From the NCBI RefSeq assembly GCF_024223415.1, contig NZ_CP100500.1: a DNA stretch of 64,000 nt; one strand, given 5' to 3'. Origin of the DNA: Escherichia coli. Lineage in GTDB: Bacteria; Pseudomonadota; Gammaproteobacteria; Enterobacterales; Enterobacteriaceae. The notes beneath the pieces are model-generated. The model was not told the origin of the DNA, made no database searches, and saw only the letters and a list, made by a program, of their open reading frames with translations. This document shows, in pieces, positions 18,861-22,036 of this stretch. Position numbers and translations under genes: made by a program. Positions within the stretch are counted from its first letter, which is position 1. Each line of letters begins with the position of its first letter.

Positions 18861-19286
18861 TCAGTGCATCACCACAGCATTACCCGCCGGGCCACCACGA
18901 TTCATCTGATTGAAACCGGCGATTGCCACTGCGATAAAATCATCAGCGTCTCTCACCAGCCGTTCTCGTGTCTCCAGCAGCTCCCTGAAATAGGCTGAGC
19001 TGTGGCTACGCATTCTGGCCACCAGCAAAGGCGGCATTGCCTTTTCGATCGCTGGTAGTAACGCCTGAATTTTTTCAACCGCATCAGGGGTGTCTTTCTC
19101 CACCCAGCGGAAAATTTTCTGGGTATTACGGGCCAGGGCTTCCGGATGGCTGTCGTCATACAGTTCCGGGAACGTCATACCCAGCTCAAAATAAGCCCGG
19201 GTTATTTCAGCTGCCGGAACTTTTTCGCCATCCGGACGCGCCCAGGCATTCATCGCCATGCGGATGTGTTCATGCTTGATTTTCAT
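18861..19286 (-). CDS. YdaT-like protein (Rac-type, function unclear)
   Basis: 141 aa immediately downstream of cro-like gene, overlapping its stop; size and position as Rac ydaT. Confidence 0.45.
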   Translation of the reverse strand: MKIKHEHIRMAMNAWARPDGEKVPAAEITRAYFELGMTFPELYDDSHPEALARNTQKIFRWVEKDTPDAVEKIQALLPAIEKAMPPLLVARMRSHSSAYFRELLETRERLVRDADDFIAVAIAGFNQMNRGGPAGNAVVMH

Positions 19287-19551
19287 GAATCAAGCTCCTA
19301 GTAAGTGGTTGTGTTAACGTTTTGGTATCTTCCAGCTCGGGCCAAATATTCATCCAATCAAAAGGCCTTAGTTGCTGACGTGTAACTTCACCATTACTGG
19401 CTCGCTCAATAAGGACACATAACGATGCCCCTAACATTTGACCTTTACTCAATGCCTTTCTTAGATAACCGATGCTAGTACCACACTCACATGCAAACAT
19501 ACGCTGTTCATCTGACGAAAGAGAATTGAGAAATATTCTTAATTCTTCCAT
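19270..19551 (-). CDS. Cro-like / YdaS-like HTH regulator
   Basis: 93 aa; ACECGTSIGYLRKALS helix-turn-helix; divergent from repressor across operator region. Confidence 0.65.
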   Translation of the reverse strand: MEELRIFLNSLSSDEQRMFACECGTSIGYLRKALSKGQMLGASLCVLIERASNGEVTRQQLRPFDWMNIWPELEDTKTLTQPLTRSLIHENQA

Positions 19552-19581
19552 AGCTACTCCTTAGTAAACACAGCAAAAGAA

Positions 19582-19617
19582 TACCCACAGGTAAACAAAA
19601 GTCAATACCCTTGGGTT
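19582..19617. promoter_or_regulatory. Operator pair (OR-like): TACCCACAGGTA (19582-19593) and TACCCTTGGGTT (19606-19617) between divergent cro-like and repressor genes
   Basis: Palindromic TACCC-N2-GGGTA-type 12-mers 24 bp apart; same motif recurs downstream of repressor. Confidence 0.5.
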
Positions 19618-19652
19618 GTTTACCTTGCGGTAATCGCATCTATTATTTACCT

Positions 19653-20072
19653 ATGGACAAATATGAATTTAGACGACAACAACTCATCAAAATTCGTGAT
19701 GAGAAATGCGATGGTAAAGCGGTTAACGTGGCCAGAAAGATCGGTCGCGAGCCTTCTTATGTATCAAGAATGTTGTACCCAGAGGGGAAAAAAGGAAAAA
19801 AACGGATCGCTGATGATATGGTGGAGATTATAGAAGAGTCCTTTGGGTTACCCCGGGGATGGATGGATGGTATCGTTTCATCATCAACGAACACAGCCTC
19901 CAATTATGAAACAAGGGTTCTAACGCCACGACAACGTATTTTTTTAGATCTCTTAGACGAACTGCCTGAAAGTGAAGCGGATAACTTATTAAAAACTCTT
20001 GAAGAGAAAAAACAGTATTACAATATGATCTACGAAGAAATCCGTAAAAAGAAAGCACAAAACGCATCATAA
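19653..20072 (+). CDS. Prophage repressor (CI/RacR-like HTH)
   Basis: ATG at 19653 (MDKYEFRR); HTH AVNVARKIGREPSYVSRM; divergent to cro-like gene. Confidence 0.7.
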   Translation: MDKYEFRRQQLIKIRDEKCDGKAVNVARKIGREPSYVSRMLYPEGKKGKKRIADDMVEIIEESFGLPRGWMDGIVSSSTNTASNYETRVLTPRQRIFLDLLDELPESEADNLLKTLEEKKQYYNMIYEEIRKKKAQNAS

Positions 20073-20115
20073 CTCACCAAACAACCAGTCACCAGTTAAG
20101 ATACATCAAAAAAAT

Positions 20116-20152
20116 TACCCATGGGTATTTACTTCTTGGATACCCATGGGTA
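20116..20152. promoter_or_regulatory. Second operator pair: two perfect TACCCATGGGTA palindromes (20116-20127, 20141-20152) just 3-prime of repressor gene
   Basis: Exact 12-bp palindromes 25 bp apart, same consensus as OR-like pair. Confidence 0.45.
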
Positions 20153-20474
20153 TCCTTTCTTTCATACCAACCCACCCCGCCCCACAGAACGCAGGGCAAT
20201 ACTTCGAGTTACCAGGCAGTGGTCAGGGGTTAAGTAGCCAGCCCGAGGCGTATGAACATGACGGCAGGGTTTAACTTTAACTATGCAGCAGGTTTTTGTT
20301 CCGCTACCCCGGCGTTAAGGGGAAACAGAGGATTTCTCAGTGGGCGAAGTCAAACATCAGAATGGAAGGCATCCCGGGATCGGCAAAGAAGCAGCAATGG
20401 CGCTTTATATTGACATCAGCGCCATTGCCGGACAGGTAAGAATTATCAGAGCGGTAACTAAGCGGTATGTGCCT

Positions 20475-20675
20475 TTACTTCAGAAAGGCTCCGGTGATTA
20501 CACCGAAGATATTGTCAACGATTTCCTCATCGAATTGCGAGGACTCATCTTCAGTTACAAGGTGACCACAATTTTTGCAGATGGCTCCCGCGAAACTGTC
20601 AGAGCCCTGCGGCTTAAAGGATGTGTCGAAGACTTCGCCACCACATTCTGGGCAAGAAAACTTGATTGTATTCAT
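20475..20675 (-). CDS. Hypothetical zinc-ribbon protein (66 aa; CPEC...CKNC); strand assignment ambiguous
   Basis: CxxC-x23-CxxC pattern; competing 118-aa plus-strand ORF 20340-20696. Confidence 0.4.
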   Translation of the reverse strand: MNTIKFSCPECGGEVFDTSFKPQGSDSFAGAICKNCGHLVTEDESSQFDEEIVDNIFGVITGAFLK

Positions 20676-21484
20676 AACCAATTTCCTCTCGGGTAACAGA
20701 CCCCTCAGAGGATACCACCTCGCCTGACGTGGTTAAAAGCAGGCACACAACACGAAAGCGCACGGCGAGGTAGCTGGTTCATATATAGCCTGTCGTTAAA
20801 TTTTCGTCGACCGTGCGCTTCCGGTTGTGGCACTCCGCGAAATGGCGCGGCGGTAAGCATGGCGGGGTTCCCTTCCCCTTGAGGACACCGGGTTGTCAGG
20901 TTGACCATGCGCCTGAGTGACAACCCCGCTGCAACGCCCTCTGTTATCAATTTTCTGGTGACGTTTGGCGGTATCAGTTTTACTCCGTGACTGCTCTGCC
21001 GCCCTTTTTAAAGTGAATTTTGTGATGTGGTGAATGCGGCTCAGCGCACGCGGAACAGTTAAAACCAAAAACAGAGTTATGGGTGGATTCTCTGTATCCG
21101 GCGTTAATTGTTAACTGGTTAACGTCACCTGGAGGCACCTGGCACCGCATCAACAAAGTTCACTTCGGTGATGAAAGGTAAGAGAAAATGTTGAATGTAG
21201 CTATTGAAAACCAGTACGGGTGGAATTATAGTGCACCTGCACCTCATAAAACGGGTGCCGGGCGTGGAAACCCGAAAGTTACTCGAGCGCATAACCGCGC
21301 CGAAGCGGTTTTTTTATGCGTAATGCACAGCCACATTCAGATAATGGTGGGGCGTGCAGGGCAGCTGCAAGGCTGGCCGGGTTCTCGAGTGACCGGTATT
21401 TCCACCCCTGTACGTCTCGCCACCCTTATGGTCGTGGAAAGCCTCGGTGGTGAGTTAATTAACTTAACACTTGAGGATGCCATC

Positions 21485-22036
21485 ATGGCTACTACCCTTA
21501 CCCTTTCTCACCCTGACGTAACCATTGAAAATGGTCGCGCTGTCACTACGTCTATTGCGATCGCAGAATTCTTCGGCAAGCAGCATCACCATGTTGTTCA
21601 AAAAATAGAGGCCCTCGAATGTTCTGAACGCTTTTTAACCAGCAACTTTTCGCGGGTTAAATTCGAGCACCGTGGCAATACCTACAATGCCTACCAAATC
21701 ACCAAAAACGGCTTCGTTTTCCTGGTGATGGGCTTCACGGGCAAAAAGGCCGCTGCATTCAAGGAAGCCTACATTGCCGAGTTCGACCGCATGGAGGAAG
21801 AACTGCGCCGGAATAACACCACACCCGCTGACAAAATAATCCCGGGTGATGGCCGCACCCTGGTTATCCGCTTCGACGAACACGGCTACATCAAATTCAC
21901 CGAAACCGTTCCTGATGGCGCACTGGTCTGTACTCTGGATACTTTCCGTTTTTATCTGGAAAAGCAGGGATGGACTCTCATAAACCGGGGCGCAATTAAA
22001 AATATGACCGTCGAGCAGTTGCTGAGTATTAAATAG
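21485..22036 (+). CDS. Phage regulatory protein Rha family
   Basis: VTTSIAIAEFFGKQHHHVVQKIEAL...NAYQITKNGFVFLVMGFTGKKAAAFKEAYIAEFDRME Rha-domain signature; GAGGA 8 nt upstream of ATG 21485. Confidence 0.75.
   Translation: MATTLTLSHPDVTIENGRAVTTSIAIAEFFGKQHHHVVQKIEALECSERFLTSNFSRVKFEHRGNTYNAYQITKNGFVFLVMGFTGKKAAAFKEAYIAEFDRMEEELRRNNTTPADKIIPGDGRTLVIRFDEHGYIKFTETVPDGALVCTLDTFRFYLEKQGWTLINRGAIKNMTVEQLLSIK

What the first reader, a model, noticed from the sequence alone, without database searches (positions are those of the whole stretch)
19582..20152. Four copies of a TACCC-N2-GGGTA palindrome flanking the repressor gene
Two copies lie between the divergent cro-like and repressor genes (19582-19593 TACCCACAGGTA; 19606-19617 TACCCTTGGGTT). 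Two perfect TACCCATGGGTA copies lie just 3-prime of the repressor stop (20116-20127, 20141-20152). Spacing within each pair is 24-25 bp. This looks like an OR/OL operator system in which the second set sits directly downstream of the repressor gene, at the head of the plus-strand early operon.
Basis: seen in the sequence. Interest (0 to 1): 0.45.

Follow-up and report, generated by a model that had tools for sequence, protein, structure and literature searches.

The report
Prophage repressor operator sites (OR and OL)
The repeated 12-base palindromes are very probably the DNA sites where a Rac-like prophage's repressor and Cro-like protein control its early promoters: an ordinary lambda-type genetic switch whose recognition sequence (TACC-N4-GGTA) I could not find described anywhere.

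Summary
All four 12-mers are at the stated coordinates, far above chance.

The operator reading is supported by comparison, not by experiment.
- The block 19292-20156 (cro-like gene, OR, repressor gene, downstream pair) is swapped as a unit between prophages that share both flanks.
- In 20 loci from other genera that encode the same N-terminal DNA-binding domain, exact TACC-N4-GGTA occurs 66 times against about 2 expected. Every copy lies at about -73 or -33 of the repressor start codon (-48 in one locus), or in the downstream site or pair.
- The downstream pair always brackets a sigma-70-like promoter. In phage mEp043 and others it precedes an N-like gene, so it is OL/PL.
- Rac K-12 and phage Tritos carry different repeats at the same positions.

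The refined core is TACC-N4-GGTA; the centre varies.

In this window the two identical OL palindromes also form a -24 kcal/mol hairpin. A secondary terminator role is possible but is not supported across the family.

Verdict: a new member of a known kind, of modest interest.

The parts
19582..19593 (.). OR1, TACCCACAGGTA. It lies in the spacer and first bases of the -10 of the leftward promoter PR.
   Evidence: An exact TACC-N4-GGTA at the equivalent position (-75 to -71) occurs in 17 of the first 20 related loci, in mEp043 and in 4 further loci.
19606..19617 (.). OR2, TACCCTTGGGTT. The left half is perfect and the right half degenerate. It abuts the PR -35 and is centred about -41.5 from the repressor ATG.
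   Evidence: In 18 loci the left half TACC is invariant and the right half is GGTT, GGCC, GGGC or GACC. The spacing to OR3 is always 15 bp.
19621..19632 (.). It overlaps the -35 of the repressor promoter PRM.
   Evidence: The site is conserved at -35 to -32 in the related loci.
19578..19605 (-). Predicted PR: TTGACT (19605-19600), 16-nt spacer, TATTCT (19583-19578). It would drive the cro-like and ydaT-like genes.
   Evidence: Consensus scan, 9 of 12 matches. The complement of TTGA (TCAA) is a near-invariant column block in relatives. The scan count for the region is not above the shuffles.
19619..19646 (+). Predicted PRM: TTTACC, 16-nt spacer, TATTAT. The -10 ends 6 nt before the ATG and there is no Shine-Dalgarno sequence, so the repressor mRNA is probably leaderless.
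   Evidence: 9 of 12 matches. A TAnAAT-like block 6-7 nt before the ATG is conserved in relatives. Leaderless paaR2 and lambda cI are reported in PMC8630535. The start point is inferred.
19653..20072 (+). Repressor gene, 139 aa. It has an N-terminal Xre/cI-type HTH domain (aa 1-73), a disordered linker (77-87) and a C-terminal helical hairpin (92-138).
   Evidence: phrog_5736. There is no Pfam hit and only a weak match to the DicA C-terminus.
19270..19551 (-). Cro-like (YdaS-like) gene, 93 aa.
   Evidence: Pfam YdaS_toxin at 25.9 bits, below the cut-off of 30; phrog_35. Homologous Cro proteins lie divergent from the repressor in most related loci.
20116..20127 (.). OL2, TACCCATGGGTA, flush with the PL -35.
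20141..20152 (.). OL1, TACCCATGGGTA. Its last two bases are the first two bases of the PL -10.
20128..20156 (+). Predicted PL: TTTACT (20128-20133), 17-nt spacer, TATCCT (20151-20156). The start would be near 20164.
   Evidence: Only 8 of 12 matches, so the scan did not report it. It is placed by alignment with relatives, which have for example TTGACG/TATTCT and TTGACT/TAATCT, and with Rac K-12's TTGACA-N17-TATAGT at the homologous spot.
20108..20114 (.). A7 tract just upstream of OL2. It could be an UP element for PL, or the U-tract of a minus-strand terminator.
   Evidence: An A-rich run is conserved upstream of OL2 in most relatives. Minus-strand fold. The role is inferred.
20116..20152 (+). 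A 16-bp hairpin formed by OL2 pairing with OL1. It is a possible secondary terminator.
   Evidence: terminator-like site.: -24.2 kcal/mol, z -4.9; minus strand -24.0 kcal/mol, z -4.2.
19292..20156 (.). Heteroimmune cassette: the cro-like gene, OR, the repressor gene and OL/PL.
   Evidence: Homology with Rac K-12, Tritos and 813R8 stops at 19291-19298 and resumes at 20157-20170. The core is present, always in full, in 821 of 5426 E. coli genomes; the flanks are in 3785.
19276..19293 (.). TTGATTTTCATGAATCAA, a perfect match to the YdaT (CII-like) operator, at the junction of the cro-like and ydaT-like genes.
   Evidence: The site was defined by footprinting for CP-933P YdaT (PMC9986795).
18861..19286 (-). 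ydaT-like (CII-like) gene, 141 aa.
   Evidence: Pfam YdaT_toxin at 39.5 bits, cut-off 21; phrog_163 CII-like.

Best explanation
The palindromes are the operators of the immunity switch of a Rac-like lambdoid prophage.

Shown by sequence and comparison: five sites with the core TACC-N4-GGTA. Three (OR1, OR2, OR3) lie between the divergent cro-like and repressor genes. Two (OL2, OL1) lie 43 nt after the repressor stop codon.

Inferred mechanism:
- Dimers of the 139-aa repressor bind each site through the N-terminal helix-turn-helix domain. Each monomer reads one invariant TACC half-site. The four central bases are not read directly and tune affinity.
- Cooperative occupation of OR1 and the intrinsically weak OR2 (24 bp apart) shuts PR, and so the cro-like and ydaT-like genes. 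OL1 and OL2 (25 bp apart) shut PL in the same way, and so the leader, DicF, the Rha/Ash gene, kilR and exoVIII.
- In both promoters one operator abuts the -35 and the other fills the spacer and supplies the TA of the -10.
- OR2 is centred near -41.5 of the leaderless repressor transcript, where it could activate PRM. OR3 overlaps the PRM -35 and would shut it when bound by excess repressor or by the Cro-like protein.
- The repressor has no S24 peptidase domain, so induction is not by RecA-mediated cleavage.
- OR and OL are about 0.5 kb apart and might be bridged by repressor oligomers.
For: 1. Statistics within the window.
2. Cassette behaviour: homology to heteroimmune Rac K-12, Tritos and 813R8 ends at 19291-19298 and resumes at 20157-20170, 5 bp or more after OL1. 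The core occurs as a unit in 821 of 5426 E. coli genomes.
3. Phylogenetic footprint: 20 loci encoding the same N-domain, from Edwardsiella, Klebsiella, Pantoea, Yersinia, Aeromonas, Ferrovum and others, hold 66 exact TACC-N4-GGTA in 134 kb against about 2 expected. All are at about -73, -48 or -33 of the ATG or in the downstream site or pair, and none elsewhere. Four more loci show the same.
4. Half-site conservation: over 18 loci TACC is invariant in 143-144 of 144 half-sites, while the centre and spacers vary. Spacings are fixed at OR1-OR2 24-25 bp, OR2-OR3 15 bp and OL2-OL1 25-26 bp. Within E. coli variants every operator substitution falls in the four central bases.
5. The OL pair always brackets -35 and -10 hexamers. 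It precedes N in phage mEp043 and ORFs with N-like arginine-rich N-termini in L006, L019 and L021.
6. Specificity tracks the N-domain. Rac K-12 has TAGGC-N3-GCCTA at the equivalent five or six positions, including a pair 25 bp apart around TTGACA-N17-TATAGT. Tritos has a homologous C-terminal region (77% nucleotide identity over its last 117 nt) but a different N-domain, and carries AGTACAT repeats instead.
7. The protein is an HTH repressor. The AF2 model has pLDDT 85.9, and its N-domain superposes on Xre-type HTH proteins at about 2.5 A. The best whole-chain matches are the phage SPC32H Rep repressor chains.
8. The homologous Cro family co-occurs, and a perfect YdaT site is present.
Against: - There are no binding or transcription data for this protein or these sites.
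- The PL hexamers in this window match only 8 of 12, below the scan's threshold. The PR and PRM matches are no more numerous than in shuffles.
- Pfam does not recognise an HTH in the repressor.
- Binding of the same sites by the Cro-like protein, cooperativity, PRM activation, the leaderless start and looping are all inferred by analogy with lambda, CP-933P and Rac.
- The two OL sites also form a strong hairpin, which offers an additional or alternative role.
- OR2 and OR3 are only 15 bp apart centre to centre, unlike lambda, so the order and compatibility of occupancy is uncertain.
Confidence: 0.85

Rival explanations
1. The downstream pair is only an intrinsic terminator hairpin for the repressor transcript (or for converging minus-strand transcripts), not an operator.
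For: - OL2 and OL1 pair into a 16-bp stem of -24.2 kcal/mol (z -4.9), followed by UCCUUUCUUUC.
- On the minus strand the same stem (-24.0 kcal/mol, z -4.2) is followed by AUUUUUUU.
- No other terminator-like site was found between the repressor stop and 20400.
Against: - The same motif occurs at OR, where no terminator is needed.
- In relatives the pair lies up to 1.9 kb from the repressor, behind cargo genes and directly before N-like genes.
- The conserved bases are the TACC/GGTA half-sites and the promoter hexamers, not the pairing. The hairpin is weak or insignificant in several relatives, for example L017 at -9 kcal/mol, z -0.5.
- A permutation test for OL2-OL1 complementarity is not significant, p 0.2-0.4.
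- The plus-strand U-tract is interrupted by C residues.
Confidence: 0.04
2. Dual use. The OL operators are real, and in this Rac-like lineage, where OL directly follows the repressor gene, the two inverted operators also act as a terminator, possibly bidirectional. It would stop PRM read-through into the PL operon (kilR and others) in the lysogen, and stop antisense transcription into the repressor gene.
For: - Strong hairpins are kept in all five loci where a short-form repressor is followed directly by OL. The values are: window -24.2, L005 -22.2, E. coli A19 -24.4 (z -8.1), Salmonella L029 -24.4 and L032 -17.6 kcal/mol.
- A19 differs from the window by two fully compensatory pair changes: OL2 centre CATG to CACA, and OL1 centre CATG to TGTG.
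- An A-run upstream and a T-rich run downstream flank the stem.
Against: - Two copies of a palindromic operator pair with each other by construction.
- Complementarity is not significant across the family.
- The five loci are close relatives.
- The compensatory changes in A19 could arise from template-switch correction of a quasi-palindrome, without selection (general knowledge).
- The plus-strand U-tract is poor.
Confidence: 0.3
3. The sites are recognised only by a protein other than the adjacent repressor: the Cro-like protein alone, YdaT, or a host factor.
For: - No binding data exist.
- The Cro family co-occurs with the sites as consistently as the repressor N-domain does in most loci.
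Against: - YdaT's footprinted site is a different sequence, TTGATT-N6-AATCAA, and it is present separately at 19276-19293.
- The Klebsiella loci L008, L010 and L011 yielded no Cro homologue, and L013 only an unrelated ORF 221 bp upstream, in the upstream ORF scan. All four still carry the sites next to the repressor N-domain.
- The sites are restricted to prophage immunity regions, which argues against a host factor.
Confidence: 0.05

Closest known systems
Phage lambda OR/OL-CI/Cro switch (textbook knowledge; summarised in PMC8630535)
   Same: - Divergent repressor and cro genes flank a tripartite OR.
- The same operator recurs at a second early promoter (PL).
- Operators overlap the -35 and -10 hexamers.
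- OR2 lies near -42 of PRM.
- The repressor mRNA is predicted to be leaderless.
- A CII-like activator gene follows cro.
   Different: - The operator core is 12-14 bp, TACC-N4-GGTA, not 17 bp.
- OL has two sites, not three.
- OR2-OR3 spacing is 15 bp, not 23.
- OL lies 43 nt after the repressor gene, with no rexAB between.
- The repressor is 139 aa with no S24 cleavage domain.
- No N gene was recognised in this window.
CP-933P immunity region: PaaR2/YdaS/YdaT with OR and OL/PL933P (PMC8630535; PMC9986795)
   Same: - Rac-like lambdoid cryptic prophage.
- Short repressor that cannot be cleaved.
- YdaS as Cro and YdaT as CII.
- Leaderless repressor gene.
- A second operator set at a PL-like promoter.
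- An identical YdaT site, TTGATT-N6-AATCAA, is present here.
   Different: - The operator sequence differs: the reported consensus half-site is GTTTAGTAA, in four 18-bp palindromes.
- In CP-933P a toxin-antitoxin pair lies between the repressor and OL; here there is nothing.
- I did not compare the PaaR2 protein sequence directly.
Rac K-12 RacR/YdaS/YdaT with operators O1-O3 (PMC9638921; PMC5700373)
   Same: - Same flanking genes: ydaT-like, DUF1376/ydaU-like, kilR and exoVIII.
- Same leader downstream of PL, 89% identical.
- Same site layout, including a downstream pair 25 bp apart around a promoter.
   Different: - RacR is only 21% identical.
- RacR recognises (T/A)TAGGC-N3-GCCTA(T/A).
- No TACC-N4-GGTA is present in the Rac locus.
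- The two are heteroimmune cassettes in a shared backbone.
Escherichia phage mEp043 cI/Cro (closest cultured phage)
   Same: - The cI N-domain is 76% identical.
- TACC-N4-GGTA sites lie at -72, -47 and -32.
- A pair 25 bp apart lies upstream of N.
- The Cro is homologous.
   Different: - cI is 228 aa; its close homologues of this length class carry an S24 peptidase domain.
- One extra gene lies between cI and OL.
- It has classical N and cII genes.
- I found no paper describing its operators.
Phage 434 operators (own knowledge)
   Same: Short palindromes with invariant outer 4-bp half-sites (ACAA...TTGT) and a variable, uncontacted centre that tunes affinity. This resembles the TACC...GGTA pattern seen here.
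   Different: - The sequence differs and the centre is 6 bp.
- The resemblance is recalled, not tested.
Rep repressor of Salmonella phage SPC32H (PDB 5d50, 5d4z)
   Same: Best whole-chain structural matches in the PDB: an N-terminal HTH plus a helical C-terminal domain. In 5d50 the repressor is in complex with the antirepressor Ant.
   Different: - The matches are weak: E about 2e-3, TM about 0.45, 16% identity.
- No shared operator is known.

Membership tests
Lambdoid immunity switch (CI/Cro with OR and OL) | Divergent repressor and cro genes separated by a short region holding several copies of one palindromic operator that overlap two back-to-back promoters. | tested here: met
   Three sites lie in the 101-bp spacer 19552-19652. 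Predicted PR and PRM overlap them.
Lambdoid immunity switch (CI/Cro with OR and OL) | The same operator recurs at a second early promoter (PL) on the far side of the repressor gene. | tested here: met
   OL2 and OL1 at 20116-20152 bracket -35 and -10 hexamers. The arrangement is conserved in relatives and lies upstream of N in mEp043.
Lambdoid immunity switch (CI/Cro with OR and OL) | Operators, repressor and cro are exchanged together as a heteroimmune (imm) block. | tested here: met
   Homology breakpoints fall at 19291-19298 and 20157-20170. The core is in 821 genomes, the flanks in 3785.
Lambdoid immunity switch (CI/Cro with OR and OL) | The repressor is a helix-turn-helix protein that binds the operators; Cro binds the same sites. 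| not testable with these tools
   The HTH fold is predicted. Binding can only be inferred from co-occurrence.
Lambdoid immunity switch (CI/Cro with OR and OL) | The repressor carries an S24/LexA-type autocleavage domain for SOS induction. | tested here: not met
   The protein is 139 aa with a helical C-domain and no PF00717. Homologues with the same N-domain do carry PF00717. This feature is also absent from the accepted members PaaR2 and RacR.
Rac-type module (RacR/YdaS/YdaT) | YdaS-like Cro and YdaT-like CII genes downstream of PR, with a YdaT site. | tested here: met
   YdaT_toxin scores 39.5 bits (cut-off 21). YdaS_toxin scores 25.9 bits (cut-off 30, so only a sub-threshold hit). A perfect TTGATT-N6-AATCAA is present.
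Rac-type module (RacR/YdaS/YdaT) | The repressor is orthologous to RacR and the operators are TAGGC-N3-GCCTA. | tested here: not met
   Identity to RacR is 21%. The motif here is different.
Rho-independent terminator | A G+C-rich stem-loop followed directly by a U-tract. | tested here: inconclusive
   The stem is strong. The plus-strand tail UCCUUUCUUUC is interrupted, while the minus-strand tail AUUUUUUU is good.
Rho-independent terminator | Pairing is conserved or covaries in relatives. | tested here: inconclusive
   The hairpin is kept in five close relatives, with two compensatory pair changes in A19. It is weak in others, and the permutation test is not significant.

The most novel reading that the evidence does not exclude
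The two OL operators, kept as inverted copies of each other, do double duty. As DNA they are the repressor's PL operators. As RNA they are a terminator hairpin, possibly bidirectional, that insulates the repressor transcript from the PL operon (kilR, DicF, exoVIII). Operator sequence and terminator stem would then be under joint selection in the Rac-like lineage, where OL directly follows the repressor gene.

Separately, one DNA-recognition module and its operators are shared between repressors that cannot be cleaved and S24-type SOS-cleavable repressors. This predicts cross-immunity between prophages that are induced by different routes.
Probability: 0.3. Interest if true: 0.45.

Novelty: new member of a known kind. 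Interest (0 to 1): 0.3.

Why it matters
This immunity type is present in 821 of 5426 complete E. coli genomes (about 15%). Its DNA-binding module occurs in prophages from Enterobacterales, Aeromonas and even Betaproteobacteria. Yet the repressor is annotated only as a hypothetical protein and has no Pfam family.

Defining its operator (TACC-N4-GGTA, with three sites at OR and two at OL) has several uses:
- It gives a ready annotation rule for these prophages.
- It predicts which prophages and phages, such as mEp043, should be co-immune.
- It adds a third specificity, next to RacR and PaaR2, for comparing how Rac-like switches keep toxic early genes (kilR, ydaS/ydaT) silent.

It does not change the picture of how such switches work.

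Tried and rejected
- **Fourth OR site.** TACCTATGGACA (19648-19659), over the ATG, is analogous to RacR O3. Its TACC is not conserved in relatives; only the coding part ATGGAyAAATA is. I treat it as chance.
- **Family-wide selection for OL2-OL1 complementarity.** The permutation test was not significant, p 0.2-0.4. OR1 and OR2 instead show excess direct identity, p 0.01.
- **Structured RNA in the conserved leader (20164-20345), such as a put- or nut-like element.** The fold is no better than shuffles, z +1.3, and there is no Rfam hit there.
- **Sequence search of the PDB with the repressor.** Nothing significant.
- **Pfam search of the repressor.** No family found.
- **Literature search for the exact 12-mer.** No papers. 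The 13 listed of 14 papers naming mEp043 do not, by title and abstract, deal with its operators; I did not read them.
- **The 2025 YdaT paper.** It does not mention ydaG, sieB or RacR binding sites.
- **The other two near-matches in the window (58544 and 62194, one mismatch each).** They are consistent with the 0.8 expected by chance, so I did not pursue them.
- **PaaR2.** I did not compare its sequence directly because I had no copy of it.
Full report
**Observation.**
The pattern TACCCNNGGGTA with up to one mismatch occurs 6 times in the window against 0.81 expected, and 0 of 100 shuffles reach that count. The looser exact core TACCNNNNGGTA occurs 4 times against 0.30 expected. All four lie between 19582 and 20152. 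The region between the two genes therefore holds three sites, at spacings of 24 and 15 bp. The downstream region holds two sites 25 bp apart.

**Genes.**
- The plus-strand ORF from ATG 19653 to stop 20070-20072 encodes a 139-aa protein with no Pfam family. It has a weak match to the C-terminus of DicA and a full-length match to PHROG 5736, 'transcriptional regulator'.
- An AlphaFold2 model (pLDDT 85.9) has an N-terminal helical domain (helices 3-18, 23-30, 34-40, 54-63), a disordered linker (77-87) and a C-terminal helical hairpin.
- The N-domain superposes on Xre-type helix-turn-helix proteins at about 2.5 A. The best whole-chain matches are the Rep repressor chains of Salmonella phage SPC32H, including its complex with the antirepressor.
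- Divergent from the repressor are a 93-aa YdaS/Cro-like gene (19551-19270) and a 141-aa YdaT/CII-like gene (19286-18861).
- Downstream on the plus strand are DicF RNA, isrK and C4 RNAs, an Ash/Rha gene, kilR and an exonuclease VIII-like gene.
- This is a Rac-like lambdoid prophage.

**The sites belong to an exchangeable immunity block.**
BLAST against Rac K-12, phage Tritos and phage 813R8 shows good homology through the ydaT-like gene up to 19291-19298, and again from 20157-20170 onward. In between there is essentially none. The one exception is the last 117 nt of the repressor gene, which match Tritos at 77%. The right breakpoint is 5 bp or more after the last palindrome, at the predicted start of the PL transcript. 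In complete E. coli genomes the flanks occur in 3785 of 5426 genomes. The core 19552-20156 occurs in 821, always in full. This is the classical behaviour of an imm region.

**Each heteroimmune relative has its own repeats at the same places.**
- Rac K-12 has RacR-type TAGGC-N3-GCCTA sites in the racR-ydaS spacer. These are the published O1-O3 (PMC9638921).
- I also find a pair 25 bp apart downstream of racR, around a perfect TTGACA-N17-TATAGT.
- Tritos CI has a C-terminal region homologous to the window's repressor (77% nucleotide identity over its last 117 nt) but a different N-domain. Tritos carries AGTACAT repeats at both places.
- No TACC-N4-GGTA occurs in these loci.
- Specificity therefore follows the N-terminal domain.

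**Phylogenetic footprint.**
- The N-domain (aa 1-73, with REPSYVSRMLY as the putative recognition helix) is 65-85% identical to the N-domains of many proteins. Some are short forms like this one. Many are 221-242-aa forms fused to an S24/LexA peptidase.
- A scan of one genome per species found 21 loci. In the 20 with a close N-domain (134,474 bp), exact TACC-N4-GGTA occurs 66 times against about 2 expected from base composition.
- Every copy lies at -75 to -71, -48, or -35 to -32 from the repressor ATG, or in a downstream site or pair 25-26 bp apart, 43 to 1863 bp after the stop. None lies elsewhere.
- The one locus with only 32% identity has none.
- Four further loci fetched through short-form homologues (Salmonella, Serratia, Yersinia, a metagenome) show the same arrangement. 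So does phage mEp043, the closest cultured phage, whose pair lies upstream of gene N.
- Over 18 loci the half-site TACC is invariant in 143-144 of 144 symmetrised half-sites. Position 5 is a pyrimidine in 124 of 144 and position 6 a purine in 117 of 144. The spacers vary.
- OR2 always has a perfect left half and a degenerate right half. OR2-OR3 spacing is always 15 bp, OR1-OR2 24-25 bp and OL2-OL1 25-26 bp.
- Among diverged E. coli copies (down to 87.5% identity), every substitution inside an operator falls in the four central bases.
- A homologous Cro family (MEELRIYLN...CGTSIGYLRKA...) is found divergent from the repressor in most of these loci.

**Promoter anatomy (partly inferred).**
- The consensus scan finds TTGACT-16-TATTCT on the minus strand (19605-19578, PR) and TTTACC-16-TATTAT on the plus strand (19619-19646, PRM). 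Each matches 9 of 12. The number of such matches is no greater than in shuffles, so they count only in context.
- OR1 fills the spacer and the start of the -10 of PR. OR2 abuts its -35.
- Downstream the same design recurs: OL2, TTTACT, an 8-bp gap, then OL1, whose last TA begins TATCCT. These hexamers match only 8 of 12 and were not reported by the scan.
- The alignment of 15 relatives shows better hexamers in the same register, for example TTGACG/TATTCT and TTGACT/TAATCT. Rac K-12 has a consensus promoter at the homologous spot.
- The PRM -10 ends 6 nt before the ATG with no Shine-Dalgarno sequence, and a TAnAAT-like block sits 6-7 nt before the ATG in relatives. A leaderless repressor mRNA is therefore likely, as shown for paaR2 and lambda cI (PMC8630535).
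- On that assumption OR2 is centred at -41.5 and OR3 overlaps the -35 of PRM.

**Mechanism proposed.**
Repressor dimers read the TACC half-sites. Cooperative pairs at OR1+OR2 and at OL1+OL2 silence PR and PL. OR2 may stimulate PRM. OR3 would shut PRM when bound by excess repressor or by the Cro-like protein. The repressor lacks an S24 domain, so induction is not by RecA-mediated cleavage. The steps after 'the sites are conserved with the domain' are inference by analogy with lambda, CP-933P (PaaR2/YdaS/YdaT with OR and OL; PMC8630535) and Rac (PMC9638921).

**The terminator rival.**
- Because the two OL sites here are identical palindromes, they pair into a 16-bp hairpin: -24.2 kcal/mol, z -4.9.
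- The plus-strand tail UCCUUUCUUUC is a poor U-tract. On the minus strand the stem is followed by AUUUUUUU.
- 'Terminator only' is excluded by the family evidence above: the pair lies up to 1.9 kb from the repressor, it sits before N-like genes, and the conserved bases are half-sites and promoter hexamers rather than pairing.
- A secondary terminator role is not excluded. All five loci where a short-form repressor is followed directly by OL keep a strong hairpin (-17.6 to -24.4 kcal/mol). E. coli A19 differs from the window by two fully compensatory pair changes, centres CACA and TGTG.
- Against this, the hairpin is weak in other relatives (L017, z -0.5). A permutation test of OL2-OL1 complementarity over 19 loci is not significant (p 0.2-0.4). 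Template-switch correction of quasi-palindromes could produce the A19 pattern without selection.

**Comparison and novelty.**
The architecture is the textbook lambdoid switch. Among Rac-like prophages it has been shown experimentally for CP-933P and, for OR, for Rac. This cassette is a third, heteroimmune specificity. The repressor is 21% identical to RacR and the operator is different. I found no description of this operator or of this repressor family's sites. The literature tools cover only open-access papers, so this is absence of evidence. I file it as a new member of a known kind.

**Verdict.**
- Observation: confirmed.
- Interpretation: supported, with three amendments. There are three OR sites, the core is TACC-N4-GGTA, and a hairpin caveat applies.
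- Confidence that these are the repressor and Cro operators of the prophage switch: about 0.85.
- Interest: modest, 0.3.

Noticed in passing
window 19276-19293: A perfect TTGATT-N6-AATCAA (TTGATTTTCATGAATCAA) overlaps the ydaT-like start codon and the 3' end of the cro-like gene. It sits at the left edge of the immunity cassette. It matches the footprinted operator OM of CP-933P YdaT (PMC9986795), which suggests a CII/PRE-like input to the repressor gene.
   Followed up: partly
window 20953-21004, 21226-21427: Rfam finds DicF RNA (76.7 bits), isrK (67.2 bits) and C4 antisense RNA (73.8 bits), plus a weak a1b1-like target, in the PL operon. The last three overlap the 5' part of the long Ash+Rha ORF 21188-22036. 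This is a P1 immI-like or Gifsy IsrK-like antirepressor control module.
   Followed up: no
window 20157-20325: A stretch of about 160 bp begins at the predicted PL start. Parts of it are shared at 89-96% identity by heteroimmune elements (Rac K-12, Tritos, 813R8, phage Evi, Stx2a phages). It shows no significant RNA fold (z +1.3) and has no Rfam hit. Its function is unknown.
   Followed up: partly
window 20340-20696 (+) and 20475-20681 (-): Two overlapping ORFs on opposite strands both have family support. The plus-strand ORF (118 aa) matches phrog_21318. The minus-strand ORF (68 aa) is a zinc-ribbon protein that RefSeq annotates as 'ECs_2282 family'. If the minus-strand gene is real, its transcript runs toward the OL hairpin and its T7 run.
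   Followed up: no
L006-L024, L026, L029-L032; proteins P0031-P0120: The same N-terminal DNA-binding module (65-85% identical) is fused either to a short DicA-like helical domain or to several kinds of S24/LexA peptidase domain. One operator specificity is thus combined with different induction routes.
   Followed up: partly
L006 4245-5144; L007 4345-5855; L018 4184-5718; L030 3148-4122; L031 3083-4626: In relatives, one to three cargo genes sit between the repressor gene and the OL pair. This is the slot that rexAB occupies in lambda and paaA2-parE2 in CP-933P. They include a P63C-domain and a Bro-N-like protein. They may be defence or exclusion genes.
   Followed up: no
L002 (Rac K-12) 3131-3168: Rac K-12 has two RacR-type sites (TAGGTAATGCCTA and TAGGCTATGCCTA) 25 bp apart around TTGACA-N17-TATAGT, about 100 bp downstream of racR. 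This is a likely OL/PL of Rac. It did not appear in the passages I searched of the RacR operator paper, which describe O1-O3 only.
   Followed up: partly
L027 (E. coli A19) 864-900: OL2 (TACCCACAGGTA) and OL1 (TACCTGTGGGTA) are exact reverse complements. Relative to the window this amounts to two compensatory pair changes that keep a -24.4 kcal/mol hairpin (z -8.1).
   Followed up: partly
L008, L010, L011, L013 (Klebsiella): These loci keep OR1 (and, except L008, OR3) and the OL site or pair next to the same N-domain. They replace the OR2 block by TTTGCTATATTTT. The upstream ORF scan found no Cro homologue in them (none in three, an unrelated ORF 221 bp upstream in L013). This is a variant switch layout.
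   Followed up: no
proteins P0013, P0019 (E. coli): Some E. coli copies encode a repressor whose N-terminal 50 or so residues come from the +1 frame (the ORF starting at window 19663). These are frameshifted, probably inactive repressor alleles.
   Followed up: no
L005: A contig labelled as a Collinsella MAG carries a repressor N-domain 100% identical to the window's and a locus closely matching the E. coli immunity regions. It is probably a mis-binned E. coli contig.
   Followed up: no
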